Shown here piece by piece: positions 2-33,052 of a stretch of 61,339 nt of DNA (positions within the stretch are counted from its first letter, which is position 1; the number at the start of each line of letters is the position of its first letter). The DNA is taken from positions 1 through 61,339 of the forward strand of contig CAILQW010000061.1 of the NCBI GenBank assembly GCA_903836515.1, read 5' to 3'. The translations under genes and the position numbers were made by a program. Under the pieces are notes generated by a model. That model did not search any database and had not been told where the DNA came from. It saw only the letters and a program-made list of their open reading frames with translations. The DNA comes from Candidatus Omnitrophota bacterium (GTDB taxonomy: Bacteria > Omnitrophota > Gorgyraeia > Zapsychrales > Fredricksoniimonadaceae).

Positions 2-3000
2 TGGGAAGACCTGAACCTGATGAACAGCCTGGGGATCAACTGGAACGACCTGCAGACGATGACGAATGCGGGGGTCAACTGGGGCGACATGCAGGCGATG
101 AGCGGCGCGGGTGTCAACTGGCAGAATATTGAAGTGATGAGCGACACGGGCGTGAACTGGAGCGATATTCAGACGATGGCCGCCGCGGGCGTCAACTGGT
201 ATGACATGCAGATGATGACATCGACCGGGATCAACTGGTCGGATATGTCGGTGTACACCAACCAGGCGATCAACTGGTCGGATCTTCAGACCTTGACCGA
301 ACAGGGCGTGAACTGGATGGATATGTCGGTGTTCAGCAACCAGGGGATCAACTGGTCGGATATCCAGGTGTTGAGCCAGCAGGGTGTCAACTGGTCGGAT
401 GTTGATGTATTGGCGAAGACAGGGGTCAATTGGTCGGATATCCAGGCGATGAGCGGCGCGGGCGTCAATTGGCAAAATATCGGGGTCATGAGCGATGCCG
501 GGATCAACTGGTCGGATATGGATGTCCTGGCACAAACGGGGATCAATTGGTCGGATGTGGGCATATTGAGCACAACGGGCATCAACTGGTCGGATATGTC
601 AGTCTTCAGCCACCAGGGCGTGAACTGGTCGGATCTTCAGGTCATGACCGAGCAGGGTGTGAACTGGTCGGATATCGATGTGCTGGCCAAGGCCGGGATC
701 AACTGGTCGGATATGGAGGTGCTGAGCACCATCGGTTTAAACTGGGGCGATATGGCGGCGATGACCTCTTCGGCGGTTAACTGGAGCGATCTGCAGGTCA
801 TGAGCGATGTGGGTGTCAACTGGCAGGATGTCGAGGCCATGAGCGCGGCCGGAGTCAATTGGGATGATCTGGGCCATATGGCCGCCACAGGCATCAATTG
901 GTCGGACATGCAAGTGCTTAGCGAACAGGGTGTGAATTGGACGGATATGTCGGTATTCAGTAACCAGGGGATCAACTGGGCGGACATCCAGGTGCTGAGT
1001 CAGCAGGGCGTGAACTGGTCCGATATCGATGTGCTGGCCAAGGCCGGGATCAATTGGTCCGATATGGATGTGTTGAGTACGGCGGGGCTCAACTGGAGCG
1101 ATATGACCGTGATGTCTTCTTCCGGGTTGAACTGGAATGACATGCAGGTCATGAGTTCTTCGGGTGTCAATTGGGAAGATTTGAATCACATGAGTACCGT
1201 GGGCGTCAACTGGGAAGATTTGAACCTGATGAACAGCCTGGGCGTTAATTGGAACGATCTTGAGTCCATGACCAATGCCGGCATCAATTGGCATGACATG
1301 CAGGCGATGACCTCCACCGGGGTTAACTGGTCCGATATGTCGGTGTACACCAACCAGGCGATCAACTGGGCGGATCTTCAGGCCTTGACCGGGCAGGGCG
1401 TGAACTGGATGGATATGTCGGTCTTCAGCAACCAGGGGATCAACTGGTCGGATATCCAGGTGCTGAGTCAGCAGGGCGTGAACTGGTCCGATATCGATGT
1501 GCTGGCCAAGACGGGGATCAACTGGTCGGATATTCAGGTGTTAAGCCAGCAGGGCGTGAACTGGTCCGATATCGATGTCTTGGCCAAGACAGGGATCAAT
1601 TGGTCGGATATGGGTGTTTTGAGTGCGGCCGGGGTGAACTGGAGCGACATGCAGGCGATGAGCGGTGCGGGGGTGAACTGGCAGAATATCGAGGTGATGA
1701 GCGATGCCGGGATCAACTGGTCCGATATCGATACGATGACTACGGCGGGCGTCAATTGGTCCGACCTTCAGACGATGAGCATGACCGGTGTCAACTGGGT
1801 TGACATGTCGGTGTTCAGCAACCAGGGGATCAACTGGTCCGATGTTGAGGTGTTGAGCCAGCAGGGCGTGAATTGGTCAGACCTGGATGTATGGACGAAG
1901 ACCGGCATCAACTGGTCCGATATCCAGGTCATGAGTGCGCAGGGCGTGAACTGGTCGGATATGGATGTGCTGGCCAAGACCGGGATCAACTGGTCGGATA
2001 TCCAGGCGTTGAGCCAGCAGGGGATCAACTGGTCGGATTTCCAGGTGATGACCGGGCAAGGTGTGAACTGGACGGATATGTCGGTGTACACCAACCAGGG
2101 GATCAACTGGTCCGACATCCAGGTGTTAAGTCAGCAGGGTGTGAATTGGTCCGATATCGACGTTCTGGCCAAGACCGGGATCAACTGGTCCAACCTTGAA
2201 ACCATGACGGATGCGGGGGTCAATTGGTCGGATCTTGATATGCTGACAACCCGTGGCGTCAACTGGGACGATATCACGGTCATGAGTGCTTCCGGTGTGA
2301 ACTGGGAAGATTTGAATCATATGAGCACGGTGGGTGTGAACTGGGAAGACCTGAATTTGATGAACAGCCTGGGGGTAAACTGGAACGACCTGGAGGCTAT
2401 GACCAATGCCGGTGTCAACTGGGGCGACATGCAGGCCATGAGCAGCACGGGTGTCAACTGGCAGAATATCGAGGTGATGAGTGATGCGGGCGTCAACTGG
2501 GGCGACCTGCAGGCTCTGACCGCCGCCGGGGTGAACTGGTCCGACCTGCAGGCGATGACGGCGTCCGGGGTGAACTGGACCGATATGTCGGTCTACACCA
2601 ATCAGGCGATCAACTGGTCGGATCTAGAGGTGTTGAGCCAGCAGGGCGTGAACTGGTCGGATGTTCAGGTGTTGAGTCAGCAGGGCATCAACTGGTCGGA
2701 TATTGATGTGCTGGCCAAGACCGGGGTCAACTGGACGGATATTGATGTGCTGGCCAAGACCGGGATCAACTGGTCGGATATGGGTGTCCTGAGTGCGGCC
2801 GGAGTCAACTGGAGTGATATGCAGGCGATGACCCTGGCGGGGATCAACTGGAGCGACATGCAGGCGTTGAGCGCTTCGGGCGTCAACTGGTCCGATTTGA
2901 ATATCATGACAGATGCCGGGATCAACTGGTCTGACTGGAGTACCATGACCAATATCGGGGTCAACTGGTCGGATCTTCAGGCAATGGCCGGCATCGGCGT

Positions 3001-5686
3001 GAACTGGTCCGATCTTGAGGTGATGAGTGTTAATGGCGTGAACTGGTTTGACCTGGCGGCGATGACCACCAATGTCTTGAATTGGGCAGACCTTTCCACC
3101 ATGACACAGGCTTCTGTCAATTGGCAGGATATGGCGGTTTTCAGTGCATCCGGTGTCAACTGGGCAGACCTTTCCATGATGGCCACGGCGGGTATCAATT
3201 GGTCTGACATGCAGGCGATGAGCGACATGGCGATCAACTGGGCTGATTGGCAGGTTTTGTCGGGACAGGGTGTCAACTGGAGCGATATCGGGGTCATGTC
3301 TGCGGCCGGCATGAACTGGTCCGGCATGGCCTACATGACGACTACGGGTGTGAACTGGGATGATCTGGCGGGTCTTTCCAGGGCAGGGGCGAACTGGCAG
3401 GATTTTGAGGTGATGTCGGACATCGGGGTCAACTGGGACAGCTTCAGCGGCATGACCAATGCCGCTGTTAACTGGGATGATTTTGTGACCCTGACCCGAC
3501 TGGGGATCAACTGGCAGGATATCGATGCCATGTCGAATGCGCAGGTCAACTGGCAGGACATGAACCAGATGACGACCCGCGGCGTCAACTGGGATGACCT
3601 GACGGTCATGACCGATGCGGGTGTCAACTGGAACGATATTGTTACGATGTCGGCGGCAGGTGTCAATTGGGACGATATGACAGCCATGAGCGCGATGGGG
3701 GTCAACTGGTCCGACATGCAGGCCATGACCGATGCGGGTGTCAATTGGGATGATGTTTCCACGCTTACTAACCAGGGTGTCAACTGGTCGGATATCCAGG
3801 TGTTGAGCCAGCAGGGTATCAATTGGTCGGATATCGATGTGCTGGCCAAGACCGGCATTAACTGGTCGGATATCCAGGTGCTCAGCCAGGAAGGTGTCAA
3901 TTGGTCGGATATCGGGGTTTTAGCGGGGACCGGAATCAATTGGTCGGATATTGCGGCCATGGCAGGTACAGGTGTCAACTGGACGGACCTCGAGGCTTTG
4001 AGCGCGGCCGGGATCAACTGGTCGGACATGTCGGTTTTTACGGGCCAGGGGATCAATTGGGCGGATATGGAGACATTGAGTACCCAGGGGATCAACTGGT
4101 CTGATATCCAGGTATTGAGCGCCCAGGGCATCAATTGGTCGGATATCGATGTGCTGGCCAAGACGGGTATCAACTGGTCGGATATCCAGGCCTTCAGCCA
4201 GGAGGGGATCAACTGGTCTGACCTGCAGTTTATGACGGATGCGGGGGTCAACTGGTCGGACATCCAGGTCATGAGCCAGGGCGGGGTCAATTGGGATGAT
4301 CTGCAGCAGATGACCGTGACAGGCTTAAACTGGTCCGATCTCCAGGTGATGACTGATCTTGGCATCAACTGGGGCAATATGGAAGAAATGCTGGGCACGG
4401 GCGTCAACTGGTCTTCGCTGGCCGGGATGTCCCTGACAAGCGTCAACTGGGATGATATGGCCGCCATGACCACCGACGGCGTGAACTGGATGAGCCTTGC
4501 ACAAATGTCAGAGGCCGGGGTGAACTGGGCCAGCGTTGACGTGATGACAGCTTCCGGTGTGAACTGGGATGATGTGGCCCTGCTGACAACCACAGGGGTT
4601 AATTGGGACAGCCTGCAGTTTATGAGCAATGCGGGTGTGAACTGGGATGATATCCAGGCTATGTCCTCCACCGCTGTCAACTGGGACGGTTTGCAGACCG
4701 TCAGTGAAACAGGTGTCAACTGGAGCGATCTGGGGGTCATGACCAACCAGGGGATGAACTGGGAGAATCTTACGGTGATGACGGCCTCCGGCATGAATTG
4801 GGAAGATCTCCAGGCCTTGACCACGACGGGCGTGAACTGGGACAATTTCAGCGCCATGTCCAACGACGGCATCAACTGGTCGGCGTTGGGAGTTATGACG
4901 GAGAGTGCTGTCAATTGGGATGATCTGAGCGTTCTGACCGGCGCCGGGATGAACTGGGCCAATATGAATGATATGACAACGGTGGGGGTCAACTGGGCTA
5001 ATTTGAGCGAGCTGACGGTCGCGGCTGTGAATTGGGACGAGTTCGGGGCCATGTCGGCGGCAGGGATCAACTGGATCAATATCAGCGAGATGTCCGAGAA
5101 TGCGGTCAACTGGAGCGGTGTGGCGGATATGGCGGCGGCCGGGATCAACTGGGGAGAGATCGGTCATCTTTCGGAATCCAATGTCAACTGGTCCGATCTG
5201 GGGGCCATGACCGATGCTGGCATCAACTGGTATGATATCGGTGTGATGAGTGACACCGGTGTCAACTGGGAAGGGATATCGGTCTTCAGTGCCGCCACGA
5301 TCAACTGGGAAGGGATCGGGGATATGAGTAACGGCGGCGTCAACTGGGCCAATATCGGAGAGCTTTCTGCCGCCGGGATCAACTGGGATGAGATTGATCA
5401 TCTTTCCCGTCAGGGCCTTAACTGGGACGAGATCGGTGAGTTGACGACCAGCGGCATTAACTGGAATGACATCGCCCAGATGACGGCGAGCGGTATTAAT
5501 TGGGATGATGTCACGGCCATGACAACGAGCACGGTCAACTGGTCCGATTTCTCCAGCATGACGGGATCCAGCGTCAATTGGGATGAGCTTGCCGAGTCGA
5601 CCACCAGCAATGTGAATTGGGCGGACATGTCCAGCATGACCCACCAGAACATTGATTGGAGCGAGATGAGCTATTTCTCGAAGAAC
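2..5686 (+). repeat. Coding tandem repeat, 39-nt period, 145 full units
   Basis: Trp codons fall at 41+39n from 41 to 5657 with no indel (hand-checked at 41, 1211, 2342, 5657). Confidence 0.95.
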
Positions 5687-6376
5687 GCCCGCACGCTTAT
5701 CAGCGAGATGGATGCAGTGTACACCAGGATCGGGTCTGTCACGGATACCAGTTCTGCTAATACCCTTTTTGGCAGGATACAGAAAATACTGGATGCGGTG
5801 GGGTCAAGCGACCTGTCGACGATCATAGCGACGCTCGGGAAAGCCACGGATGCGGGCACGGCCGGAACGATCTTCGGGGACATCAACAATATCCAGTCGT
5901 CCCTCGGTACAAGCACCACGTCTTCCACCGTATTCTCCCAGATGGATACCATCCAGGGCTATGCCAAGAAAGGCAAAGACAGTGCGGATGCGGCGCTCGG
6001 TGTGGCCAAGAATATCCAGGAAGACCTGGGTGTCAACGGCGAAACGCCCAGTGCTTATCAGAAACTGAAAGATCTCGAAACGTATATCAAGGACATCCAG
6101 GCGTCGGCCCTGGCCATGGGCAACAAGCAGGATGTCACCGGTGATCTTGCCCAGCAGATGATCGACATGGTCAAGAATTTCATCAACCGCCAGGCCGAGC
6201 TGGCCGGTATCGCCACCAGCGGCCTTGCGGTGGAAGGCCTCTCCGGGAAAAATGCGGGCGATATGGATAAGGTCAACGAGAAGCTTGAAGAGATCGATGC
6301 CAAGATCCTGGCCCTGCGTGAAGCCATGAAGCTTGATGATGTGGTGGTGAAGACCTGGTTTGAAAGCGAGGAATAA
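2..6376 (+). CDS. Giant 13-aa tandem-repeat protein (G-[VI]-N-W-x-D), 5'-truncated by the window edge; non-repetitive C-terminal ~240 aa
   Basis: Frame is open from base 2 (WEDLNLMNSLG...), so the true start lies upstream. 145 units, then a helical/coiled-coil tail ending VVKTWFESEE. Next gene starts 3 nt after the stop. Confidence 0.9.
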   Translation, partial: WEDLNLMNSLGINWNDLQTMTNAGVNWGDMQAMSGAGVNWQNIEVMSDTGVNWSDIQTMAAAGVNWYDMQMMTSTGINWSDMSVYTNQAINWSDLQTLTEQGVNWMDMSVFSNQGINWSDIQVLSQQGVNWSDVDVLAKTGVNWSDIQAMSGAGVNWQNIGVMSDAGINWSDMDVLAQTGINWSDVGILSTTGINWSDMSVFSHQGVNWSDLQVMTEQGVNWSDIDVLAKAGINWSDMEVLSTIGLNWGDMAAMTSSAVNWSDLQVMSDVGVNWQDVEAMSAAGVNWDDLGHMAATGINWSDMQVLSEQGVNWTDMSVFSNQGINWADIQVLSQQGVNWSDIDVLAKAGINWSDMDVLSTAGLNWSDMTVMSSSGLNWNDMQVMSSSGVNWEDLNHMSTVGVNWEDLNLMNSLGVNWNDLESMTNAGINWHDMQAMTSTGVNWSDMSVYTNQAINWADLQALTGQGVNWMDMSVFSNQGINWSDIQVLSQQGVNWSDIDVLAKTGINWSDIQVLSQQGVNWSDIDVLAKTGINWSDMGVLSAAGVNWSDMQAMSGAGVNWQNIEVMSDAGINWSDIDTMTTAGVNWSDLQTMSMTGVNWVDMSVFSNQGINWSDVEVLSQQGVNWSDLDVWTKTGINWSDIQVMSAQGVNWSDMDVLAKTGINWSDIQALSQQGINWSDFQVMTGQGVNWTDMSVYTNQGINWSDIQVLSQQGVNWSDIDVLAKTGINWSNLETMTDAGVNWSDLDMLTTRGVNWDDITVMSASGVNWEDLNHMSTVGVNWEDLNLMNSLGVNWNDLEAMTNAGVNWGDMQAMSSTGVNWQNIEVMSDAGVNWGDLQALTAAGVNWSDLQAMTASGVNWTDMSVYTNQAINWSDLEVLSQQGVNWSDVQVLSQQGINWSDIDVLAKTGVNWTDIDVLAKTGINWSDMGVLSAAGVNWSDMQAMTLAGINWSDMQALSASGVNWSDLNIMTDAGINWSDWSTMTNIGVNWSDLQAMAGIGVNWSDLEVMSVNGVNWFDLAAMTTNVLNWADLSTMTQASVNWQDMAVFSASGVNWADLSMMATAGINWSDMQAMSDMAINWADWQVLSGQGVNWSDIGVMSAAGMNWSGMAYMTTTGVNWDDLAGLSRAGANWQDFEVMSDIGVNWDSFSGMTNAAVNWDDFVTLTRLGINWQDIDAMSNAQVNWQDMNQMTTRGVNWDDLTVMTDAGVNWNDIVTMSAAGVNWDDMTAMSAMGVNWSDMQAMTDAGVNWDDVSTLTNQGVNWSDIQVLSQQGINWSDIDVLAKTGINWSDIQVLSQEGVNWSDIGVLAGTGINWSDIAAMAGTGVNWTDLEALSAAGINWSDMSVFTGQGINWADMETLSTQGINWSDIQVLSAQGINWSDIDVLAKTGINWSDIQAFSQEGINWSDLQFMTDAGVNWSDIQVMSQGGVNWDDLQQMTVTGLNWSDLQVMTDLGINWGNMEEMLGTGVNWSSLAGMSLTSVNWDDMAAMTTDGVNWMSLAQMSEAGVNWASVDVMTASGVNWDDVALLTTTGVNWDSLQFMSNAGVNWDDIQAMSSTAVNWDGLQTVSETGVNWSDLGVMTNQGMNWENLTVMTASGMNWEDLQALTTTGVNWDNFSAMSNDGINWSALGVMTESAVNWDDLSVLTGAGMNWANMNDMTTVGVNWANLSELTVAAVNWDEFGAMSAAGINWINISEMSENAVNWSGVADMAAAGINWGEIGHLSESNVNWSDLGAMTDAGINWYDIGVMSDTGVNWEGISVFSAATINWEGIGDMSNGGVNWANIGELSAAGINWDEIDHLSRQGLNWDEIGELTTSGINWNDIAQMTASGINWDDVTAMTTSTVNWSDFSSMTGSSVNWDELAESTTSNVNWADMSSMTHQNIDWSEMSYFSKNARTLISEMDAVYTRIGSVTDTSSANTLFGRIQKILDAVGSSDLSTIIATLGKATDAGTAGTIFGDINNIQSSLGTSTTSSTVFSQMDTIQGYAKKGKDSADAALGVAKNIQEDLGVNGETPSAYQKLKDLETYIKDIQASALAMGNKQDVTGDLAQQMIDMVKNFINRQAELAGIATSGLAVEGLSGKNAGDMDKVNEKLEEIDAKILALREAMKLDDVVVKTWFESEE

Positions 6377-6379
6377 CCA

Positions 6380-7711
6380 ATGGGGCTGCGTACAGGGGTG
6401 TCCGGCAGGGGGTGGGGTATTCTTGCCGCTTCCTTTTGGGGGCTCGTCCTCCTTGTCCCTTTGGCGTATGCTGACATTGTGATCAATGTCCTGGCAGTCA
6501 ATGGGACGGACCAGCCTCAGAAAAAGAATATCGAATTCAGCCTCCCGGGAGAACTGAAGCCCGAGGATGTTGTTGATAATGCCGGGCTTCAGCTTGATTA
6601 TAATGTCAAGGATGCCGGGTATTTCCTGCACGGCGATGTTGATCTTCAGTCCAAGGAGACAAAGACCTTCCGGGTCCATGTGCGTGATGTCTGGCGTATC
6701 GGCGATACCGCAGTGGGCGCGCTGCGCGATGACATCGAGCGCGGGTACAGGGAAATGGGCGGCGAGCGCGATGCCGCCAATGCCGGGAAGCTCCGTCAGA
6801 AACTGATCGACAAGCTTGATTATATCCTTGCAGAACAGGACAGGTCTGCCGGCAACATCGATGCGCGCATCGATGCCTACCGCAATCATACCCAGACCAT
6901 TGCAGGGATCAGGGCCAAGGCCAAGCTCATCGACTACTGGCGCACCGATGCCGCCATTGCAGATCCGGCCAAGGTCATTAATTTTCTGGTCCAGGTCGAG
7001 AATCCGGGCGAGAAGACCAAGAAGGTCAAGCAGCAGCACTATCTTCCCGCCGAAGTCAGGCCCGAGTATATCACCGACCGCCAGGGTTTCGAGATCCGTT
7101 TCGATGAGAAAAAAGGACAGCCTTTCCTTTTCAGGGAGGATGATTTTGCTCCCGGTGAAAAACGGAAGGTTTCTATCGCCATCCAGGATGTCTGGTTTGT
7201 CCCGGAGAACGAGCTTCAATATGTCCGGGGGCACGCCAAGTACGCCATGGGTGACCTTCAGAAATCAAAGTACATTGATACCGCCAAGGCGCTTTTTAAT
7301 GATATCATCAATAATCTCGATCTGATCGATGCGCTTCAAAAGACGCTCCAGCCGGACATTGAACAGCATATCGGCGCCTACCGTCTTAATGCGGTCAGGT
7401 TCGAGCAGGCGAAGAAGGATCTTGACGCGCTGGAGAAGCTTTTGTCCAGGTTCCGTGCGGACAGGGAAAAAAGCAAGATCAAGAACGTGATGCAGAAGAT
7501 ACAGACCCTGAAGTCCCTGGCCAAGGTTTCCGAAGCGATCCTCGACAAGAAACCGACCGTGAACGCGGCCTGGAAACTGATCGGGTCCGTGATGCTCTTC
7601 CTCGCATTTTTCACGACCATTTATTTCATCACATGGTTTTTCCGCTCTTCCCGGGAGAAAAAACAGGAAGAGATCAAGTACGGCCAGAAGAAAGATGAAG
7701 CGCGCGGTTAA
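6380..7711 (+). CDS. Exported protein with signal peptide, two tandem ~167-aa domains and a C-terminal TM anchor; function unknown
   Basis: N-terminal hydrophobic stretch ending LAYA. Motifs LPxExxPE, DVW and AYR each recur 501 nt apart. TM LIGSVMLFLAFFTTIYFITWFF followed by a basic tail. Confidence 0.85.
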   Translation: MGLRTGVSGRGWGILAASFWGLVLLVPLAYADIVINVLAVNGTDQPQKKNIEFSLPGELKPEDVVDNAGLQLDYNVKDAGYFLHGDVDLQSKETKTFRVHVRDVWRIGDTAVGALRDDIERGYREMGGERDAANAGKLRQKLIDKLDYILAEQDRSAGNIDARIDAYRNHTQTIAGIRAKAKLIDYWRTDAAIADPAKVINFLVQVENPGEKTKKVKQQHYLPAEVRPEYITDRQGFEIRFDEKKGQPFLFREDDFAPGEKRKVSIAIQDVWFVPENELQYVRGHAKYAMGDLQKSKYIDTAKALFNDIINNLDLIDALQKTLQPDIEQHIGAYRLNAVRFEQAKKDLDALEKLLSRFRADREKSKIKNVMQKIQTLKSLAKVSEAILDKKPTVNAAWKLIGSVMLFLAFFTTIYFITWFFRSSREKKQEEIKYGQKKDEARG

Positions 7712-7729: not shown

Positions 7730-9214
7730 ATGAGCATTAAACTGCAGTATACGGAAGTCGGCGTGGTCAAGGCGATCAGGGGCTGTATTGTCATTGTGAC
7801 AGGGCTGTCCAATTGCATCAACGGCCAGCTCATCCGTTTCGGTTACGGCACGTTGGGGATGGTGGTCGGGTTCACGCAGGATGAGGCGCAGGTTCTTATC
7901 CTCAAGGAATCCTCCAAGATCCGTACCGGGGATGAAGCCAATGCGGCGATCGAGCCGCTGGTCACGCCGGCCGGCAAGAATTTTATCGGGCGTATCGTCA
8001 ATCCGCTGGGGGAACCCCTGGACGGGCTGGGCCCCATCGAGGCAGATGTCATGGTCCCGATATTTCCCGAGTCGCCGCCGATCCTCGACCGTCAGCCGTT
8101 GAACAAGACCCTGGAGACCGGCATCAAGGTGCTTGATGCCATGATCCCTATCGGACGGGGTCAGCGGGAGCTGATCCTGGGCGATAAAATGACCGGCAAG
8201 ACCACGTTTGTGACCGATACCATCGTGAACCAGAAGGGCAGCGGGGTCATTTGCATCTACTGTTCCATCGGCAAGGCCCGTGCTTCCATGGCCAAAGTCG
8301 TCCAGCTTTTCAAGGATCGCGGCTGTTTCGATTACAGTATCATCGTGTCTGCGGCGGCATCGTCCACACCGGGACAGCAGTATCTGTCGCCGTATGTCGC
8401 CTGTTCTCTGGGGGAGTATTTCATGCAGCGGGGCATGGACGTGTTCATCGGGTTTGACGATTTCACCAAACACGCCTGGTGTTACCGCGAGATTTCCCTG
8501 CTCCTGGGCCGTCCGCCGGGGCGCGATTCCTATCCGGGAGACATTTTTTATCTCCATTCCAAGATGATCGAGCGCTCCTGCTTTCTCAGCAAGGAGAAGG
8601 GCGGCGGATCCATGACGTTTTTTCCGATCGTCGAGATCCTCGAGGGCGACCTGACCGCCTTTGTGCCTTCGAACCTGGTGTCCATGACCGACGGCCAGAT
8701 CTACCTGAGTTCACAGTTATTCGGGGAGGGCCAGAAACCCGCGCTCGACCTGGGGCTTTCGGTTTCGCGTGTCGGATCCAAGGTCCAGTGGTCCGCGATC
8801 AAGTCCCTTTCGGGCCCGTTGCGCCTGGAATATCTCCAGTACCGCGAACTGCTGAGGCTTTCGAAACTGAAGACCTCCGGCCAGTCCGAGGAAATGAAAC
8901 AAAAACTCAAGCGCGGCGCGATCCTGACCGCCATTCTCCGGCAGGACAAGGACTCCCCGGTCTGCCAGGAGATGCAGGTCCTGATCTTTTATGCGTTCAA
9001 CAAGAAATACTTGAACGATCTCTCCATCGAGCAGGTCAATGCGTTCCAGGACACATGCCTGGATTATGTGGTCAGGAACAAGCCTGAGTTCATGGCGCTG
9101 ATGCGCGAACGGCGCAAACTGGACCCCGAGATCGAGAAAATGCTTGATGAGATGATCAAGGGGCTTGTCATGGGCATCGTGGAACAGACCATGGCCAAGT
9201 CCGACCGCGGTTAA
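7730..9214 (+). CDS. atpA: F-type ATPase alpha-like subunit (divergent, short N-terminus)
   Basis: ETGIKVLDAMIPIGRGQRELILGDKMTGKT, DDFTKHA..YREISLLLGRPPGRDSYPGDIFYLHS, TDGQIYL, SVSRVG (Arg finger). Confidence 0.93.
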   Translation: MSIKLQYTEVGVVKAIRGCIVIVTGLSNCINGQLIRFGYGTLGMVVGFTQDEAQVLILKESSKIRTGDEANAAIEPLVTPAGKNFIGRIVNPLGEPLDGLGPIEADVMVPIFPESPPILDRQPLNKTLETGIKVLDAMIPIGRGQRELILGDKMTGKTTFVTDTIVNQKGSGVICIYCSIGKARASMAKVVQLFKDRGCFDYSIIVSAAASSTPGQQYLSPYVACSLGEYFMQRGMDVFIGFDDFTKHAWCYREISLLLGRPPGRDSYPGDIFYLHSKMIERSCFLSKEKGGGSMTFFPIVEILEGDLTAFVPSNLVSMTDGQIYLSSQLFGEGQKPALDLGLSVSRVGSKVQWSAIKSLSGPLRLEYLQYRELLRLSKLKTSGQSEEMKQKLKRGAILTAILRQDKDSPVCQEMQVLIFYAFNKKYLNDLSIEQVNAFQDTCLDYVVRNKPEFMALMRERRKLDPEIEKMLDEMIKGLVMGIVEQTMAKSDRG

Positions 9215-9228
9215 GGAAAGGGGCCGGC

Positions 9229-9495
9229 ATGGCGTCATCGTATACCGGAACATTTCGCTGTGTGATCCTCAGCGCCAAACAATTGATCTTTGAGGGCGAG
9301 GTGAACAGCGTTTTTATTTCCGGCGACCGCGGCGAGTACGAGCTTTTAGCCTATCATTACCCCTTGATCGGGATCGTGGCCGGGGATGTGGTCCTGGACT
9401 GGGATAAACGCCTTGTGGTCAAGGGCGGTGTTGTCAGGTTTTTCGCGAACGAATGCACGATCATGATTGAAGAAAAACAGGTCGCATCCGAATGA
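9229..9495 (+). CDS. atpC: F-type ATPase epsilon-like subunit, N-terminal beta domain only
   Basis: FRCVILSAKQLIFEGEVNSVFISGDRGEYELLAYHYPLI matches the epsilon N-terminal pattern. 88 aa, no C-terminal helical hairpin. Confidence 0.8.
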   Translation: MASSYTGTFRCVILSAKQLIFEGEVNSVFISGDRGEYELLAYHYPLIGIVAGDVVLDWDKRLVVKGGVVRFFANECTIMIEEKQVASE

Positions 9496-9546
9496 AGAGG
9501 CGTTTCCCCGGCAGGGGATGCGGGCGATAACCAGAAAAGGGAAGGT

Positions 9547-9768
9547 ATGCTGGCAGAAACATTCATTATCCTGATGGTTATGTTCATCGCGGTCCTGGGT
9601 CCGTCTTTGGTTATTTCGGTGCTGGGGTACGCGGTCATCATGGCGTTAAGCCGCAACCCGTCCGCGGCGTCCAAGATTTTCATGGGCATGGCGATCATGC
9701 TGGTGTTCGTCGAGGCGATCTCGATCATTTCGATCCTGATCATTTTTCAGCTTTTTTCGGCAAAATAA
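9547..9768 (+). CDS. atpE: F-type ATPase c-like subunit
   Basis: 73 aa, two TM helices, loop SRNP, conserved carboxylate in FVEA. Confidence 0.85.
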   Translation: MLAETFIILMVMFIAVLGPSLVISVLGYAVIMALSRNPSAASKIFMGMAIMLVFVEAISIISILIIFQLFSAK

Positions 9769-9809
9769 GTTCTGCGGCCGGGGACAGGGCCTGCGGGAGG
9801 GCATGATAC

Positions 9810-10046
9810 ATGGGCGAGCGGTTCATCTATTGGAATGAAGGCCTGGTCTTTATAGGGCTCTTGACGTTCATCGTCGGTGTCCCTTGCCTGGCGGTGGCCA
9901 TTCTCGGGACCCGGCTTATCAACCATATCGGCCGTTATCCCACCAAAAGCGCACGGCTGCAGATGGGTATTTGCAGCCAGCTTCTGGTCATTGTGATCTT
10001 TTCCTTCTTTCTGTTGGCGTTATTTTTTCATGTTTTCTCAGATTAA
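9810..10046 (+). CDS. Second c-like subunit lacking the ion-binding Glu
   Basis: 78 aa, two TM helices, loop GRYP. Aligns without gaps to the preceding c subunit, with Val at the Glu position. Confidence 0.65.
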   Translation: MGERFIYWNEGLVFIGLLTFIVGVPCLAVAILGTRLINHIGRYPTKSARLQMGICSQLLVIVIFSFFLLALFFHVFSD

Positions 10047-10060
10047 CCAAGGAGTTTAAG

Positions 10061-10816
10061 ATGAACGTCCAGTTAATGGTTGGTTTTGTGCTCAGTCAGG
10101 TCGTCGTGTTCGGCGCTATCCTGGGGCTCCTTTATTATTTCTATGTTTCGCAGACGGACGGGGCCAAACAGCGCCTTGAGCGCGATGCGGAAGCCGCCCG
10201 CGCCCGCGAGGCTGAGCTTAACCGCAAGATCAAGGCTGCGGACGAGGAGCTTGCCGCCCGCCGGAAGGAGCTCGACCAGCTTGAACAGAAAATGAAGATC
10301 GAACTCGAGGCCGAGTCGGCCAAGCACCGGGAAGAGCTGGTCCAGAAGGCCCGCGCGGAAGCGGAAGAGATCATCACCAAGGCCCAGAACGCCGCTGACG
10401 GCATCAGGCGCGATATCGAGAAACAGATGGAACTGAAGATCATCGATCATTCCGTTAATATTCTGGGCGGGGTGTTGACCCGCGGGGCCAGGGTCTCCCT
10501 GGAGAAAGACCTTCTCGAGGAGTTCATCGAACAGTTGAAGAACGTGGACATGTCCCGGATCAGCCTGGACATCAAGAAAGCGGATGTGATCACGTCGGCC
10601 GGGCTGGGCGATACGGATGTCAAGCGCATCAGCGATATCATCAGGGCCAAGACCGGGCGGGACATTGCCCTTAACGCCAAGACCGATGACGCCCATGTGG
10701 CAGGGGTTGTGATCCACTTCGGGAGTCTGCAGCTTGACGGGAGCATTAAAGCGGCGGTCAGGGATGCGGCCTCTGCGCTCAAGGCCGATGTCGAGAAGTC
10801 TTCACAGAAAAAATAA
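10061..10816 (+). CDS. atpF: F-type ATPase b-delta fusion subunit
   Basis: RBS AAGGAG then ATG at 10061. N-terminal TM, long coiled coil, C-terminal delta-like segment (VITSAGL...VAGVVIHFGSLQLDGSI). Confidence 0.82.
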   Translation: MNVQLMVGFVLSQVVVFGAILGLLYYFYVSQTDGAKQRLERDAEAARAREAELNRKIKAADEELAARRKELDQLEQKMKIELEAESAKHREELVQKARAEAEEIITKAQNAADGIRRDIEKQMELKIIDHSVNILGGVLTRGARVSLEKDLLEEFIEQLKNVDMSRISLDIKKADVITSAGLGDTDVKRISDIIRAKTGRDIALNAKTDDAHVAGVVIHFGSLQLDGSIKAAVRDAASALKADVEKSSQKK

Positions 10817-10849
10817 CCATCCCTCCGCGCGGGGCGGGTAAGGTATTTT

Positions 10850-13175
<2,326 letters not shown>

Positions 13176-20842: not shown

Positions 20843-21633
20843 TCCCCTTCTGGCACAGGACGCTGGTCCCGTGCATGCTTATTTCTCTTCTATCCGCAGC
20901 GCAGGTTTCTGCCGCCCCCGTGAGCCGGGAGCAGTTGTTCCAGCTCGCCACCATTGCGGCCGGAGACCATCAGTTTGAACGTGCCATTGAACTTTTCCAG
21001 AAGATCATCGAAGTGGATCCCAAGTTTGCCCCGGCTTATAACGGGATCGGGCTTGTCCATCAGTCGGATGAAAATGGTTCGCCGCTGGAAGCGCTGCGTT
21101 ATTTCAGGCTTGCCGTTGACATTGACCCTGAATATGCCGAAGGCTGGAACAATCTGGGAAGGGCTTATTATACCCAGGCCCGTTTTGTGAACGCGGAACA
21201 GGCGTTCTTGACATCCTTGCGCCTTAAGCCCGGGCAGACAGATATCGAGTTCGCCCTGGCGTGGGACTATCTTTTGGGGCAGTCGCGCCCCGATGAGGCG
21301 ATTACCTATTTTGAGAAAGTCAGGGCCCGCCAGGATAATCCCATGATCTATTACGGGATCGGGCTGGCGAGCCTCCTGCAGGGCAACCGCATGAGGGTCA
21401 TGGAGGCTGTCACGCAGCTGCGCCATCATCAGAGGGAAGAACAGGCCCTGGGGCTTGAGAAAATGTTGAAGGAGAATGTCCTGATCAATTCAAAGCCGGG
21501 GACTCCGCTGGTGACAGGTGCGCCGCAGGCGGAATCATTATTCGATCATCAACTCAGGGAACTTAACGCGTCGGGGTATACGGTTCCCGGCAAAGAAGGC
21601 ATCAAGGTCAGATTAAAGGGGCCCTTGCTGTGA
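20839..21633 (+). CDS. Exported TPR protein
   Basis: Signal peptide. TPR motifs (DPKFAPAYNGIG, DPEYAEGWNNLGRAY). Confidence 0.85.
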   Translation: MIPFWHRTLVPCMLISLLSAAQVSAAPVSREQLFQLATIAAGDHQFERAIELFQKIIEVDPKFAPAYNGIGLVHQSDENGSPLEALRYFRLAVDIDPEYAEGWNNLGRAYYTQARFVNAEQAFLTSLRLKPGQTDIEFALAWDYLLGQSRPDEAITYFEKVRARQDNPMIYYGIGLASLLQGNRMRVMEAVTQLRHHQREEQALGLEKMLKENVLINSKPGTPLVTGAPQAESLFDHQLRELNASGYTVPGKEGIKVRLKGPLL

Positions 21634-22769
21634 CAAATAAATTTACGGTCTGTGTTGCGCTGGGGACACGTCCCGAGGCCATCAAGCTGGCACCGGTGAT
21701 CCGCGCGCTGCGCACGCTTCCCGGGGTGACGGTCAGGGTCCTGGTGACGGGCCAGCATCGTGGCATGATGGATGAGGCGCTTGACGTGTTTGGCATCACG
21801 CCGGATTATGACCTGGATATCATGCGCAAAGGCCAGGCGCTTTTTGATGTGACGGCCCGCATCCTTAAGGGGATGCCGCGCGTGCTGGCGCAGGAAACCG
21901 TTGACCTGATGGTGGTTCAGGGAGATACCGCGACCACCTTTGCCTGCGCCCTGGCCGCGTACTATCACCGTATCCCGGTAGCGCATGTCGAGGCCGGCCT
22001 GCGTACGGGCGACAAGTACCGCCCGTTTCCCGAGGAGGGCAACCGGCGGCTGACCGGCGTGTTGGCTGACCTTCATTTTCCGCCCACCCCGCAGGCAGAA
22101 CGTGCGCTGCTGCAGGAAGGCGTGTCCCGCCAGAGCGTCCTGATGACCGGGAATACCGTGGTGGATGCGCTTCGGCTGGCCGGAGGACAGGACAGGGCCT
22201 TCACAGATCCTTTACTGCGGGAGTTGGCGGCAAGCCGGCGCAAGATTGTTCTGGCGACACTTCACCGCCGGGAAAGTTTTGGCGATGGCCTGCGTCAGGT
22301 GCTCTTGGCCCTGCGGGATATCAGCATGCTGCCGGGAGTGGATGTGGTTTATCCCGTGCACCTTAATCCGCAGGTCCGCTCTCAGGTGAAAGAGACGCTT
22401 TCTGGCGGGCGGGTTCATCTCCTGGAGCCTTTGGCGTATGACCAGTTTGTCGTGCTCATGAAGAAGGCGCGTGTGATCGTGACGGACTCGGGCGGCATTC
22501 AGGAAGAAGCCTGTGCCCTCAGGAAGCCTGTGATCATCACGCGTGAGATGACCGAGCGGCCCGAGGCCGTTGCCGCCGGGTTTGCCCAGCTTTTGGGGTT
22601 CGACCGAAAGCGTATTGCCGCGGCCGTGCAGCGCCTGGTGCAGGATGATGCCTGGTACCGTCAATGTACGTGCCACAAGAATCCTTTTGGAGACGGCAAG
22701 GCATCGGCCCGTATTGCCCGTGCCTGCCTGCGTTATCTCCAGGCCCATCAACCGCGAGGCAAGAGATGA
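21630..22769 (+). CDS. wecB: UDP-N-acetylglucosamine 2-epimerase (non-hydrolysing)
   Basis: GTRPEAIK, TGQH, VQGDT, HVEAGLRT, FPEE.NR, TDSGGIQEEA. Confidence 0.95.
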   Translation: MTNKFTVCVALGTRPEAIKLAPVIRALRTLPGVTVRVLVTGQHRGMMDEALDVFGITPDYDLDIMRKGQALFDVTARILKGMPRVLAQETVDLMVVQGDTATTFACALAAYYHRIPVAHVEAGLRTGDKYRPFPEEGNRRLTGVLADLHFPPTPQAERALLQEGVSRQSVLMTGNTVVDALRLAGGQDRAFTDPLLRELAASRRKIVLATLHRRESFGDGLRQVLLALRDISMLPGVDVVYPVHLNPQVRSQVKETLSGGRVHLLEPLAYDQFVVLMKKARVIVTDSGGIQEEACALRKPVIITREMTERPEAVAAGFAQLLGFDRKRIAAAVQRLVQDDAWYRQCTCHKNPFGDGKASARIARACLRYLQAHQPRGKR

Positions 22770-23461
22770 TATCTGTTGTAGTTCCTGCTTATAACGAAGA
22801 AGAGGTCATCGGCCGTTTTCTGGAGGCCTGCGTCCGGGATATCCGCCGGGATGTGCCGCTGGAGATCGTGGTGGTCAATGATGGCAGCCGTGATGCCACG
22901 CGGGATCTGGTGCAAGGGTTCACGGCACAATATCCCTTTATCCGCCTGGTCAACCATGAGGTCAACCGCGGCCTGGGCAAGGCGTTGGAGACAGGGATTG
23001 CCGCGGCCCGGGGCGAGGTCATTGTCACCATGGATGCGGACCTGACCCATCCTCCCGCCATGATCCGGGAGCTTGCCGCCGGGCTCAAGGACGCGGACAT
23101 TTGCATCGCGTCGCGTTATGTCAAAGGCGGCGGGATGCAGGATGTGCCGGCCTGGCGCATTGGGGTCAGCCGCATGGCCAATCTTGTCTTTGATCTGATC
23201 TTCTGGACGCATATCCACGACCTTTCTTCGGGGTTCAAGGCTTACCGCGCGGAGCACCTCAAGAAGGCGCCGATTATATCGAACGGGTTTGAATGCCAGA
23301 TGGAGATCATGCTGTATTTCATCAAGCACCATTTGCGTTCCCGTGAGATCCCGCTCATGCTCAAGAACCGTCAGTTCGGCACCTCCAAGTTCCAGGTCGT
23401 GCGGATGGGGATGAAGTATGTGCGCAGCCTGGCGCGTTTTCTGGCATACCGCTGGTCATGA
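22766..23461 (+). CDS. GT2 polyprenol-phosphate glycosyltransferase (DPM1-like)
   Basis: MISVVVPAYNE, VVNDGSRD, NRGLG, MDADLTHPP, IASRYVKGG. Confidence 0.9.
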   Translation: MISVVVPAYNEEEVIGRFLEACVRDIRRDVPLEIVVVNDGSRDATRDLVQGFTAQYPFIRLVNHEVNRGLGKALETGIAAARGEVIVTMDADLTHPPAMIRELAAGLKDADICIASRYVKGGGMQDVPAWRIGVSRMANLVFDLIFWTHIHDLSSGFKAYRAEHLKKAPIISNGFECQMEIMLYFIKHHLRSREIPLMLKNRQFGTSKFQVVRMGMKYVRSLARFLAYRWS

Positions 23462-23462
23462 T

Positions 23463-25458: not shown

Positions 25459-25480
25459 AGGAATTTCTGTTGGCTATCGC

Positions 25481-25509
25481 TTGACAACCGGGCGTGTACG
25501 TAGTACATT
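25481..25509 (+). promoter_or_regulatory. Sigma70 promoter with overlapping inverted repeat (probable antitoxin operator)
   Basis: TTGACA-17-TACATT. TGTAC-gta-GTACA at 25495-25507. Confidence 0.65.
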
Positions 25510-25530
25510 GTCTTACAGGAGGGTGGAACA

Positions 25531-29267: not shown

Positions 29268-30059
29268 TTACTGTATCGGTTTTGCGGCGTCTGCGCAAGG
29301 CATAAGGGGCGTTTTCCTGCGCGAGGCATGCAGCATCAGGAATATCTTGAGAAGATCCAGGCCGCTGGTGACAAAGTCTTTCAAACGGAGTTTGGAGCCT
29401 TTCTTATCGATCCAGATCCGCAGGGGATATTCCATGCAGATGGTGTCTACCGGCGGAAAGCCTTGATGTTGAGTGATAATAAAACGCGCCAGGATCTCGA
29501 CGTCGAATATCCAGTGTGTGGTAAAAGGGGCGGCAAAAATCTGCTTGAGCCTGGTGTTGACACGGAAGAGCTTGGCCCCGCATTGGGTGTCATAAACGCG
29601 CAAGCCCAGGATCATGGAGGTGGCTGTGGCAAAGGCGCGTCCGGCATAGTGCCGCACAGGGTTGCGTTCGATCTTGTAGCCCAGCAAGGCGACGCGCGAG
29701 GCCATGGCGATGTCTTTATGGCCTTGGGTGAGGGCGTTTTCAAGTTCCAGCATGCTTGCGATGGGCGCGGCCAGATCTGCGTCGAGAAACCCGATCAGGG
29801 CGGGGTTCATGGTAAAGCCTTTGAGAAATCCCAGGCGGACCGCTTCCGCCTTGCCGCTGTTATGCGGCAGGTGCAACACGCTGATGTGTCCAGGGGCCTT
29901 GGCCTGAAGATCATCGAGCATCGCGGATGTTTTGTCCGTGGAGCCGTCGTCCACGAAAAGAAGATGAATCGCGGCGTGTTGTCCGGCAAAAGCCAAAAAC
30001 ACGTCAGGCATCAGGCGCTCGGCTTCGTTGTAACAGGGGATGACAATGAGGATGCGCAT
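29268..30059 (-). CDS. GT2 polyprenol-phosphate glycosyltransferase (ALG5/DPG synthase-like)
   Basis: IVIPCYNEAERL, FVDDGSTD, NSGKAEAVRLG, FLDADLA, DTQCGAKLF, WIFDVEIL. Confidence 0.9.
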   Translation of the reverse strand: MRILIVIPCYNEAERLMPDVFLAFAGQHAAIHLLFVDDGSTDKTSAMLDDLQAKAPGHISVLHLPHNSGKAEAVRLGFLKGFTMNPALIGFLDADLAAPIASMLELENALTQGHKDIAMASRVALLGYKIERNPVRHYAGRAFATATSMILGLRVYDTQCGAKLFRVNTRLKQIFAAPFTTHWIFDVEILARFIITQHQGFPPVDTICMEYPLRIWIDKKGSKLRLKDFVTSGLDLLKIFLMLHASRRKTPLMPCADAAKPIQ

Positions 30060-31510: not shown

Positions 31511-31641
31511 ACCCTAGGGTTTTTCAAGGATGTTTTTTTGTTTATGTCTGGATGAAGTCCCATTATAAATAGAGAAGTGCCATGTGCAAGCGATTTCTGT
31601 TCAGTTCTGGCCGGGCTTCCAGGATCATCCGCAGAAAACCT

Positions 31642-31670: not shown

Positions 31671-31676
31671 GTCCCG

Positions 31677-33023: not shown

Positions 33024-33052
33024 ATGAGACGTATTATAAATAAGTCAGTAAC

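What the first reader, a model, noticed from the sequence alone, without database searches (positions are those of the whole stretch)
32..5660. About half of the repeats carry an N-W-S/T sequon, with an oligosaccharyltransferase 21 kb away
Seen: by hand count 74 of the 144 N-W units read N-W-S or N-W-T, the N-X-S/T glycosylation sequon. An STT3-type OST, two GT2/GT-C pairs and wecB lie in the same window. Established: Campylobacter PglB also needs D/E at -2 (here G/A), whereas archaeal AglB does not. Trp at X is a poor sequon for eukaryotic OST. Inference: the protein may be a densely and regularly glycosylated surface rod. The sequons could instead be a by-product of an N-W-S-D helix cap.
Basis: partly seen in the sequence, partly recalled or inferred. 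Interest (0 to 1): 0.72.

Follow-up and report, generated by a model that had tools for sequence, protein, structure and literature searches.

The report
Giant Asn-Trp repeat fibre, incidental sequons
The 13-residue Asn-Trp repeats belong to a huge secreted fibre protein that, with an unusual oligosaccharyltransferase, flanks a secretion and rotary-ATPase gene cluster conserved across the phylum Omnitrophota, but the N-W-S/T glycosylation motifs look like a side effect of a variable repeat position rather than a conserved glycosylation code.

Summary
The count is right: 144 N-W units at exactly 13-residue spacing, 74 of them N-W-S/T. The gene is cut by the window's 5' end.

The repeat protein and the STT3-type enzyme are not chance neighbours. 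In 40 metagenomic loci the repeat gene is followed by a 443-aa partner, an F-type ATPase-like set and T2SS/T4P-like genes. In 52 of 63 informative Omnitrophota species loci the enzyme sits convergently at the other end of those genes.

The sequon itself is not conserved:
- S/T after N-W ranges from 3% to 78% between loci, and that position is among the least conserved in the unit.
- One genome keeps an intact enzyme in the same locus although only 2 of its 88 units carry S.
- In the window, S/T units are concentrated in recently amplified blocks.
- All 80 enzymes read WW[P/S/A/T]PG instead of WWDYG, so they lack the Asp of the Ser/Thr pocket.

Two structure models were low-confidence. Both place Asn just before a short helix with Asp three residues later, a capping-box pattern.

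Best reading: a structural helix-loop stalk with incidental sequons. Glycosylation of this protein is not excluded. The enzyme's conserved linkage and odd motif are the more interesting result.

The parts
2..5647 (+). Array of 13-residue Asn-Trp repeats: a partial unit at 2-31, then 144 complete units from 32. Consensus G-[VI]-N-W-x-D-[ILM]-x-[VA]-[ML]-[ST]-x-x. 74 units read N-W-S/T. Open at the window's 5' end.
5648..6376 (+). One degenerate unit (NIDW) and a ~240-aa non-repeat C-terminal domain. It has three TDTSxxxxLFG-like motifs and a helical tail ending VVVKTWFESEE. This is the most conserved part of the family.
6380..7711 (+). 443-aa protein of unknown family with an N-terminal signal/TM segment and a C-terminal TM segment. 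It follows the repeat gene in 40 related loci.
7730..13175 (+). F-type ATPase-like gene set: alpha 7730-9214, epsilon 9229-9495, c 9547-9768, 78-aa 2-TM protein 9810-10046, b/delta (OSCP) 10061-10816, gamma 10850-11704, beta 11733-13175.
   Evidence: locus type described in PMC10066038
13178..21633 (+). T2SS/T4aP-like genes: GspE/PilB ATPase 13178-14899, GspF/PilC 14905-16119, GspG-like major pseudopilin 16218-16643, two minor pseudopilins 16603-17651, GspK-like 17652-18671, PilM-PilN fusion 18736-20226, PilO/GspM-like 20168-20842, TPR protein 20839-21633.
21630..25115 (+). UDP-GlcNAc 2-epimerase (wecB) 21630-22769, GT2 resembling polyprenyl-phosphate sugar synthases 22664-23461, and a polytopic membrane protein (at least 8 TM, no family match) 23418-25115. 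This block is present only in the window's clade.
26767..29262 (-). STT3/AglB/PglB-family oligosaccharyltransferase homologue (831 aa) with WWAPG in place of WWDYG. It is convergent with the T2SS-like genes.
29268..31510 (-). Second GT2 (29268-30059) and a second polytopic membrane protein (30059-31510, at least 6 TM, no family match), upstream of the oligosaccharyltransferase gene on the same strand.

Best explanation
Window 2-6376 encodes the C-terminal >=2,100 residues of a very large secreted protein.

The Asn-Trp repeats most likely form a long helix-loop stalk. Each 13-residue unit is a short amphipathic helix running from W to about position 12, joined by a 4-5 residue loop x-G-[VI]-N. 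The invariant Asn caps the helix N-terminus and pairs with the conserved Asp three residues later as a capping box. The invariant Trp anchors the hydrophobic face.

The residue between them is a tolerant position that drifts between S, T, D, N, A and even L/V in different lineages. The 74 N-W-S/T sequons are therefore a by-product of that position, inflated here by recent amplification of N-W-S-D units. They are not a conserved glycosylation code.

The protein is the conserved first gene of the Omnitrophota locus that combines a T2SS/T4aP-like apparatus with an F-type ATPase-like complex. It probably acts as the fibre or adhesin that this apparatus exports or anchors. Its conserved C-terminal domain likely docks to the machinery or to the 443-aa partner, and in homologues lectin- and Ig-like domains sit at the far N-terminal end.

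The STT3-type enzyme at the other end of the locus is a real, conserved member. Its acceptor is unknown.

Shown: repeat anatomy, synteny, non-conservation of the sequon, and the enzyme's motifs. Inferred: the fold, export, role as a fibre, and lack of dependence on glycosylation.
For: Repeat anatomy. There are 144/144 N and W at 13-residue spacing. The family-wide profile from 7,162 units is G86 [V/I]97 N W x D76 [I/L]77 x V44 [L/M]94 [S/T]92 x A49 (percent). The +2 position reads S32 A12 D12 T11 N10 L7.

Secondary structure. Two AlphaFold runs place a helix from W (or the next residue) to about position 12 in every unit. Asn directly precedes the helix in 8 of 10 units.

Sequon not conserved.
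- S/T share is 0.51 in the window, 0.59, 0.18 and 0.31 in P0001-P0003, and 0.03-0.78 in 50+ metagenomic arrays.
- The L106 array (+2 = L41 V24 A8 I8, S2) overlaps the enzyme locus L031 over 2,462 bp at 100% identity. L031 carries an intact WWPPG enzyme.
- In the window, S/T units are enriched among recently duplicated units: 19 of 23, against 28 of 76 units with no twin >=80% identical.

Locus.
- Repeat gene -> 443-aa partner -> F-ATPase genes -> GspE/F is seen in 40 loci and in L001-L003.
- Upstream in L001-L003 lie GT2, DUF2304, methyltransferase, GT2, an AAA ATPase, a secretin and a TPR protein; a T2SSC domain is called between the ATPase and the secretin in L001 and L002, and L003 has an unannotated 250-aa gene there.
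- P0001 and P0002 begin with signal-peptide-like sequences and carry LamG/Ig-like domains.

Family size. 148 representative proteins at E<=1e-3 among 1.84 billion. Arrays reach about 1,240 units.
Against: Both structure models are low-confidence (mean pLDDT 43.6 and 45.7). The fold, and whether Asn is buried, are therefore not established.

S and T together are still the commonest residues at +2 family-wide: 43% against about 17% S+T in the window protein overall.

The oligosaccharyltransferase is conserved in the same locus. No other locus protein shows a sequon excess, so the fibre remains the most sequon-rich candidate acceptor in this organism.

Export by the T2SS-like system is inferred from gene order only.
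Confidence: 0.55

Rival explanations
1. In this organism the locus-encoded STT3-type enzyme N-glycosylates many of the 74 N-W-S/T Asn as the fibre crosses the periplasm, giving a densely and periodically glycosylated rod.
For: The enzyme is a conserved convergent neighbour of the same locus in 52 of 63 informative species loci, with a median gap of about 300 bp. It keeps the acidic catalytic motifs (ESDSYY, YDNDxY, invariant E370 and R433).

Homologues of the fibre have signal-peptide-like N-termini. Asn lies in a loop, not inside the helix. The fibre has about 37 sequons per 1,000 aa against 3-7 in other locus proteins.

wecB and GT2 genes that could build a lipid-linked donor lie between the two genes. 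A sequon (LNTS) is conserved in 93% of the enzymes' own periplasmic domains, which hints that N-X-S/T may still be read.
Against: The sequon share falls to 3-8% in several lineages. One of these demonstrably keeps the enzyme in the locus.

All 80 enzymes lack the Asp of WWD, which forms the Ser/Thr pocket (PMC8342417). D/E at -2, required by Campylobacter PglB, occurs in 0.6% of units. Trp at the X position is a poor sequon for eukaryotic enzymes (established knowledge, not tested here).

The S excess in the window is partly due to recent unit amplification.
Confidence: 0.25
2. The enzyme's altered pocket (WW[P/S/A/T]PG) has relaxed or changed acceptor specificity. It modifies the invariant Asn of G-[VI]-N-W whatever follows, so that N-W itself is the acceptor motif.
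For: An N-W array and this enzyme lie in one locus in the window and in the stitched L106/L031 locus; elsewhere each was seen separately at its own end of the same locus type. The Asp that reads the +2 hydroxyl is replaced in 80 of 80 enzymes. N and W are invariant where +2 is not. The enzyme is retained with a sequon-free array.
Against: There is no direct evidence. Invariance of N and W is fully explained by a structural role. No STT3-family enzyme is known to work without a +2 hydroxy residue. The enzyme family (at least 133 species genomes) appears more widespread than detectable repeat genes, although repeat genes assemble poorly.
Confidence: 0.07
3. The invariant Asn and Trp are ligand-binding residues. 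The array is a polyvalent carbohydrate-binding surface that grips prey or host cell-wall glycans. The enzyme serves other targets, such as general periplasmic or surface proteins or pseudopilins.
For: Trp and Asn are typical sugar-contacting residues (established knowledge). Homologues carry LamG and Ig-like carbohydrate-associated domains. The literature proposes adhesion roles for giant Omnitrophota proteins (PMC10066038; 10.1101/2023.11.21.568195).
Against: No similarity to any carbohydrate-binding family was found. The hydrophobic pattern (V/I, W, I/L, V, L/M) looks like a buried helix face. The pseudopilins and other locus proteins show no conserved extracytoplasmic sequon.
Confidence: 0.15

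Closest known systems
STT3 / AglB / PglB oligosaccharyltransferases (GT-C fold)
   Same: It scores above the Pfam STT3 threshold. A profile of the family hits human STT3A (5e-16), A. fulgidus AglB (1e-12) and C. lari PglB (4e-11). ESDSYY aligns with EFDPYF, YDNDxY with YDNEGI, and WWsPG exactly with WWDYG.
   Different: The Asp and Tyr of WWDYG are replaced (WWPPG 52, WWSPG 19, WWAPG 8, WWTPG 1 of 80). DGGK reads DGA[S/T]. The family is restricted to Omnitrophota MAGs and is syntenic with a T2SS/T4aP-like cluster. Neither WWSPG nor WWAPG occurs in any paper of the library searched.
'Symbiotic' type-2/3 F-type ATPase / type-4a pilus loci of Omnitrophota (Seymour et al. 2023, PMC10066038)
   Same: The window has the same arrangement of F-type ATPase-like genes next to T4aP/T2SS-like genes, in the same phylum.
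   Different: Term searches of that paper's text found no mention of glycosylation or an oligosaccharyltransferase, and the passages on the F-ATPase/T4aP loci name no adjacent repeat protein or 443-aa partner. Here these are shown to be conserved flanking members.
Giant proteins of Omnitrophota next to T2SS-like loci (West-Roberts et al. 2023, bioRxiv 10.1101/2023.11.21.568195)
   Same: A very large, repeat-rich, presumably extracellular protein is encoded beside T2SS-like genes. Related arrays reach about 48 kb.
   Different: Their two classes, Archaeovorins and Dockerin-type proteins, are defined by other domains. A 13-residue Asn-Trp repeat is not described there.
Mycoplasma mobile gliding machinery (F1-like ATPase with giant surface proteins Gli349/Gli521)
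   Same: An F1-like ATPase is encoded with very large surface proteins. Seymour et al. place the Omnitrophota alpha subunit with these type-2/3 ATPases.
   Different: There is no sequence relation between the repeat protein and the Gli proteins, so this is an analogy only. Omnitrophota are diderm, and their locus has secretin and pseudopilin genes.
Archaeal AglB-dependent N-glycosylation of archaellins, type IV pilins and S-layer proteins
   Same: An STT3-family enzyme is functionally tied to type IV filament or surface structures, and no acidic -2 residue is required.
   Different: Here the major pseudopilin has no sequon, and no conserved extracytoplasmic sequon was found in the locus proteins. 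The WWD Asp is absent.
Helix N-capping box (N-cap S/T/D/N ... N3 E/D)
   Same: Asn lies immediately before each predicted helix and Asp sits three residues later in 76-80% of units.
   Different: This rests on low-confidence models and sequence logic, not on a solved structure.

Membership tests
STT3/AglB/PglB oligosaccharyltransferase | Significant match to the STT3 family model and to solved family members | tested here: met
   Pfam PF02516 scores 61.5 bits against a cut-off of 24.5. The profile hits STT3A at 5e-16, AglB at 1.4e-12 and PglB at 4.2e-11.
STT3/AglB/PglB oligosaccharyltransferase | Two acidic DXD-type catalytic motifs in the first two external loops | tested here: met
   The invariant D116 in ESDSYY aligns with STT3A EFDPYF. 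YDNDxY aligns with YDNEGI.
STT3/AglB/PglB oligosaccharyltransferase | TIXE/SVSE motif in external loop 5 | tested here: inconclusive
   An invariant E370-L371 in VVGEL is a candidate, but HMMER did not align it to SVSE.
STT3/AglB/PglB oligosaccharyltransferase | WWDYG motif forming the Ser/Thr-binding pocket | tested here: not met
   All 80 species sequences read WW[P/S/A/T]PG, and this aligns on WWDYG of STT3A. The only distant hit with WWD is P0052. The role of the motif is from PMC8342417.
STT3/AglB/PglB oligosaccharyltransferase | DGGK (or DNXT) motif after WWDYG, and a DK/MI motif | tested here: inconclusive
   An invariant D544-G545-A546 (TFDGA[S/T]) aligns with STT3A VDNNT. The DK/MI motif could not be located.
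STT3/AglB/PglB oligosaccharyltransferase | Transfers a lipid-linked glycan to Asn | not testable with these tools
   This needs biochemistry or glycoproteomics.
Campylobacter-type PglB acceptor site (D/E-X-N-X-S/T) | Acidic residue at -2 of the sequon | tested here: not met
   The -2 residue is G in 125 and A in 10 of 144 units. D/E at -2 occurs in 0.6% of 7,162 units.
N-X-S/T sequon as a conserved feature of the Asn-Trp repeat family | S/T retained at +2 across related arrays | tested here: not met
   The share ranges from 0.03 to 0.78 per locus and is 0.18-0.59 in P0001-P0003. +2 is among the least conserved positions in the unit.
Pfam PF25533 'Lysostaphin, N-terminal domain' | Homology to the 13-residue repeats of prolysostaphin | tested here: inconclusive
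   The window protein scores 209.6 bits against a cut-off of 60. P0001 scores 31.9 and P0003 13.3, both below the cut-off. BLASTP against the lysostaphin repeat consensus, recalled from memory, finds nothing. The match probably reflects shared 13-residue periodicity.
Omnitrophota 'symbiotic' F-type ATPase / T4aP locus | F-type ATPase-like genes within 10 kb of T4aP/T2SS-like genes | tested here: met
   The beta subunit gene ends at 13175 and GspE starts at 13178. The same order is seen in related loci.
Type II secretion system (Gsp) | E, F, G, minor pseudopilins, K, L/M-like, C and secretin D | tested here: inconclusive
   E, F, G, two minor pseudopilins, K, PilMN and PilO/M-like genes are in the window. 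A secretin lies upstream of the repeat gene in L001-L003 and a T2SSC-domain gene in L001 and L002. That region lies beyond the window's 5' end.

The most novel reading that the evidence does not exclude
A phylum-specific STT3 clade has lost the Asp that reads the +2 hydroxyl (WWDYG to WW[P/S/A/T]PG). It co-evolves, inside one conserved secretion/rotary-ATPase locus, with a fibre carrying hundreds to more than a thousand invariant G-[VI]-N-W motifs. The enzyme would glycosylate the Asn of N-W independently of Ser/Thr. That would be a new N-glycosylation acceptor rule, producing a periodically glycosylated giant fibre.
Probability: 0.07. Interest if true: 0.85.

Novelty: new variant of a known kind. 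Interest (0 to 1): 0.5.

Why it matters
Protein N-glycosylation by membrane oligosaccharyltransferases is documented in bacteria mainly for Campylobacterota and some Desulfobacterota. Here an STT3 clade with a rewritten acceptor-pocket motif is found in at least 133 Omnitrophota species genomes. It is fixed at the end of the locus thought to mediate attachment of these ultra-small, possibly predatory cells.

Knowing what this enzyme modifies would do three things. It would test how essential the WWD pocket is. It could supply a single-subunit enzyme with new specificity for glyco-engineering. It would also clarify how the F-ATPase/T2SS-like apparatus and its giant Asn-Trp fibre work.

For the finding as written the result is a caution. 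A periodic sequon in a repeat protein beside a glycosylation gene is not evidence of glycosylation when the sequon position drifts freely among relatives.

Tried and rejected
- Structure of the repeat. Two AlphaFold runs were made, one of 14 units with 27 rows and one of 10 units with 82 rows. Both gave pLDDT of about 44-46. Only the secondary structure was used, and no fold search was run on such models.
- Direct hit of the enzyme to solved structures. A single sequence found nothing. Only the family profile did.
- Co-occurrence on the contigs of P0001-P0003. An exact 51-mer from the end of L002 was not in the metagenome collection. A third protein-database search with a 48-sequence profile returned the same 47 enzymes and none on those contigs. 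That search is not exhaustive, because the genome scan found 133 species. The enzyme loci with 10-kb flanks do not reach the repeat gene. Co-occurrence was finally shown by overlapping synteny and by one stitched pair, L106/L031.
- N-terminus of the window's protein. All 16 public contigs of this organism break inside the array.
- The pseudopilin or another locus protein as the conserved acceptor. Sequon densities are ordinary. The only strongly conserved sequon columns are in the cytoplasmic PilM part and in the enzyme itself.
- Sequon excess in the N-terminal domains of homologues. The excess is weak, with z of 1.9, 2.8 and -0.05.
- Pfam label 'Lysostaphin_N'. It was not accepted as homology.
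- ORFs 31563-32510(-) and 33002-33943(-). I first listed these as unknown genes. They are shadow ORFs of a PIF1-like helicase and a response regulator on the + strand.
- GT-C identity of the two polytopic proteins. No Pfam or NCBIfam match was found.

Full report
**Observation**

Window 20-6376 (+) translates without stops into 2,118 residues. It contains 144 N-W dipeptides, and every one of the 143 spacings is 13 residues. The unit consensus is G-[VI]-N-W-x-D-[ILM]-x-[VA]-[ML]-[ST]-x-x. N and W are invariant.

The -2 residue is G in 125 units and A in 10.

The reading frame is open to base 2. Bases 2-19 read WEDLNL, a repeat continuation. All 16 public contigs that carry the neighbouring gene begin inside the array. 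The gene is therefore 5'-truncated and the unit number is a minimum.

**Is it more than chance?**

Composition alone predicts about 36 sequons against 78 observed. The units are copies of one another, so this comparison is weak. The array has higher-order repeats of 78, 117 and 156 nt.

S/T units are concentrated in the recently amplified blocks:
- 19 of the 23 units with a DNA twin at >=90% identity are S/T.
- 28 of the 76 units with no twin at >=80% are S/T.
- 8 of the last 36 units are S/T.

**What the protein is**

A word-indexed database search found only five relatives. Three of these (P0001-P0003) are close relatives sharing the long array, and P0001 and P0003 also the C-terminal domain. 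One is from an Omnitrophota MAG.

P0001 and P0002 start with signal-peptide-like sequences. P0001-P0003 all have large N-terminal globular regions (LamG, Ig-like) before the Asn-Trp array. P0001 and P0003 end in the same ~240-aa C-terminal domain, VVVKTWFE.

A metagenome scan with that C-terminal region returned 62 loci. Arrays in these loci hold up to more than 500 units per 21 kb. One contig has an uninterrupted array of about 48 kb, roughly 1,240 units.

An exhaustive HMMER search of 1.84 billion representative proteins gave 148 hits at E<=1e-3, mostly fragments.

Pfam labels the window protein 'Lysostaphin_N'. The homologues score below that model's cut-off, and there is no BLASTP similarity to the lysostaphin repeat as I recall it. 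I treat the label as a match of 13-residue periodicity.

**Structure**

Two AlphaFold runs on alignments of repeat segments were low-confidence, with pLDDT 43.6 and 45.7. Nothing can be said about the tertiary fold or about burial of Asn.

Both runs agree on secondary structure. Each unit has a helix from W (or the next residue) to about position 12, followed by a 4-5 residue loop x-G-[VI]-N. Asn is the residue just before the helix in 8 of 10 units.

Asp follows three residues later in 80% of the window's units and 76% of units family-wide. This N...D arrangement is the classical capping-box pattern, which is established knowledge of helix N-caps. Its application here is an inference.

**Gene context**

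Downstream of the repeat gene the window encodes, in order:
- a 443-aa bitopic protein;
- an F-type ATPase-like set (alpha, epsilon, c, a 78-aa 2-TM protein, b/delta, gamma, beta);
- GspE, GspF, a GspG-like pseudopilin, two minor pseudopilins, GspK, a PilM-PilN fusion, PilO/GspM and a TPR protein;
- wecB, a GT2 and a polytopic membrane protein;
- a PIN toxin;
- the convergent STT3-type gene, preceded on its own strand by a second GT2 and a second polytopic protein.

LpxB shows that the organism is diderm. The F-ATPase/T4aP arrangement is the 'symbiotic' locus described for Omnitrophota by Seymour et al. (PMC10066038). Term searches of that paper found no mention of glycosylation or an oligosaccharyltransferase, and its passages on these loci name no adjacent repeat protein.

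**Synteny on the repeat-gene side**

The order repeat gene, 443-aa partner, F-ATPase genes, GspE/F is kept in L001. L002 keeps it through the F-ATPase genes and continues with a PilZ protein and PilMN. L003 ends at the repeat gene. Forty of the 62 metagenomic loci, essentially those that extend past the gene's 3' end, show the 443-aa partner directly after the repeat gene, followed by F-ATPase genes and GspE/F wherever the contig reaches that far.

Upstream in L001-L003 lie GT2, DUF2304, a methyltransferase, GT2, an AAA ATPase, a secretin and a TPR protein. A T2SSC domain is called between the ATPase and the secretin in L001 and L002, where L003 has an unannotated 250-aa gene.

**Synteny on the enzyme side**

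The enzyme family was found in 133 species-level genomes, almost all labelled Omnitrophota. Eighty loci were retrieved.

Of the 63 loci with at least 3 kb of sequence downstream of the gene, 52 (83%) carry the TPR, PilO, PilMN, GspK, pseudopilin and GspF/E genes directly downstream. These genes are always convergent, with a median gap of about 300 bp. An F-ATPase beta gene follows in 6 of the 8 loci that extend past GspE.

The wecB-GT2-membrane-protein insertion is specific to the window's clade.

The repeat gene and the enzyme are thus the two ends of one conserved locus. Their 21-kb separation is not a chance neighbourhood.

**The enzyme**

It passes the Pfam STT3 threshold. A family profile hits STT3A, AglB and PglB structures.

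Motif by motif:
- ESDSYY aligns with EFDPYF.
- YDNDxY aligns with YDNEGI.
- WWsPG aligns exactly with WWDYG.
- TFDGA[S/T] aligns with VDNNT.

In 80 of 80 sequences the WWD Asp is replaced: WWPPG 52, WWSPG 19, WWAPG 8, WWTPG 1. [quoted passage not shown]

Neither WWSPG nor WWAPG occurs in any paper of the library searched. The enzyme is a clear family member by homology, but it fails one defining motif. Its acceptor rule cannot be assumed.

**Does the sequon matter?**

Five observations argue that it does not.

1. The S/T share at +2 is 0.51 in the window and 0.59, 0.18 and 0.31 in P0001-P0003. It ranges from 0.03 to 0.78 among metagenomic arrays. Whole lineages use L, V, A or I at this position.
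2. Over 7,162 units, +2 reads S32 A12 D12 T11 N10 L7 (percent). It is one of the least conserved positions in the unit, while the +3 Asp stays at 76%.
3. L106, whose 88 units have only 2 S at +2, overlaps the enzyme locus L031 by 2,462 bp at 100% identity (MHGP01000076.1). L031 carries an intact WWPPG enzyme. The enzyme is therefore kept in the locus where the fibre has essentially no sequons.
5. No other extracytoplasmic locus protein shows a conserved sequon or a sequon excess.

In the other direction, S and T together remain the commonest residues at +2. The fibre is the most sequon-dense protein of the locus in this organism. A sequon in the enzyme's own periplasmic domain is conserved in 93% of sequences.

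**Conclusion**

The repeats are best read as a structural helix-loop stalk of a giant secreted fibre. That fibre belongs to the Omnitrophota F-ATPase/T2SS-like apparatus. The N-W-S/T sequons arise at a tolerant position next to a capping Asn and are amplified here by recent unit duplication.

N-glycosylation of these sites in this organism remains possible; I put it at about 0.25. The more novel possibility, that the variant enzyme modifies N-W Asn regardless of +2, is not excluded; I put it at about 0.07.

The conserved placement of a WWD-less STT3 enzyme in this locus is the most interesting by-product of the check.

Noticed in passing
window 26767-29262 (-); loci L007-L086: The whole Omnitrophota STT3 clade has WW[P/S/A/T]PG instead of WWDYG (WWPPG 52, WWSPG 19, WWAPG 8, WWTPG 1 of 80). 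It sits convergently about 300 bp from the end of the T2SS/T4aP-like operon in 52 of 63 informative species loci.
   Followed up: yes
L128, L132, L144, L143, L122 (contig Ga0163146_10000109, about 26.8-75.2 kb): One Asn-Trp array spans about 48 kb, roughly 1,240 units or about 16,000 aa, with no stop in the sampled parts. The family therefore includes true giant genes.
   Followed up: partly
window 7730-13175: The F-type ATPase-like set has alpha, epsilon, c, a 78-aa 2-TM protein, b/delta, gamma and beta. No recognisable a subunit is present in this stretch, so it may not work as a normal proton-driven synthase.
   Followed up: no
window 6380-7711 (+): A 443-aa protein of unknown family has an N-terminal signal/TM segment, a long helical middle and a C-terminal TM segment. 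It always follows the repeat gene (40 loci), so it is a candidate anchor or chaperone for the fibre.
   Followed up: partly
L001-L003, upstream of the repeat gene: A conserved block of GT2, DUF2304, methyltransferase and GT2 precedes an AAA ATPase, a secretin and a TPR protein (a T2SSC domain is called before the secretin in L001 and L002). This is a second glycan-related gene set tied to the locus. It lies beyond the window's 5' end.
   Followed up: no
window 25752-26153 (+): A PIN-domain toxin gene (TIGR00305, 3e-18) is inserted between the glycosyltransferase block and the STT3-type gene. The ORF at 25145-25549 upstream has no family match.
   Followed up: no
window 31563-32510 (-) and 33002-33943 (-): These long ORFs are shadow frames. 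The real genes are a PIF1-like helicase (31584-33023, +) and a response regulator (33053-33841, +). The antisense frames still gave tblastn hits in related loci.
   Followed up: yes
window 45509-53860 (+): A second large ORF (2,783 aa) has no Asn-Trp repeats and only sub-threshold HlyD and PG-binding hits. It has a signal-like N-terminus and internal hydrophobic segments, and its function is unknown.
   Followed up: no
P0004, P0005: Short runs of 12-19 Asn-Trp units occur inside otherwise unrelated multi-domain proteins with no recognisable common domains. The 13-residue module may therefore be a portable spacer.
   Followed up: no
enzyme alignment, window residue about 576 (LNTSSN): A sequon in the periplasmic domain of the enzyme itself is conserved in 74 of 80 sequences. 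It is a possible self-glycosylation site, as is known for some family members.
   Followed up: no
L003 16915-18654: Asn-Trp repeats continue in another frame after the called stop of P0002. That gene therefore has a frameshift or sequencing error and runs to the contig end.
   Followed up: partly
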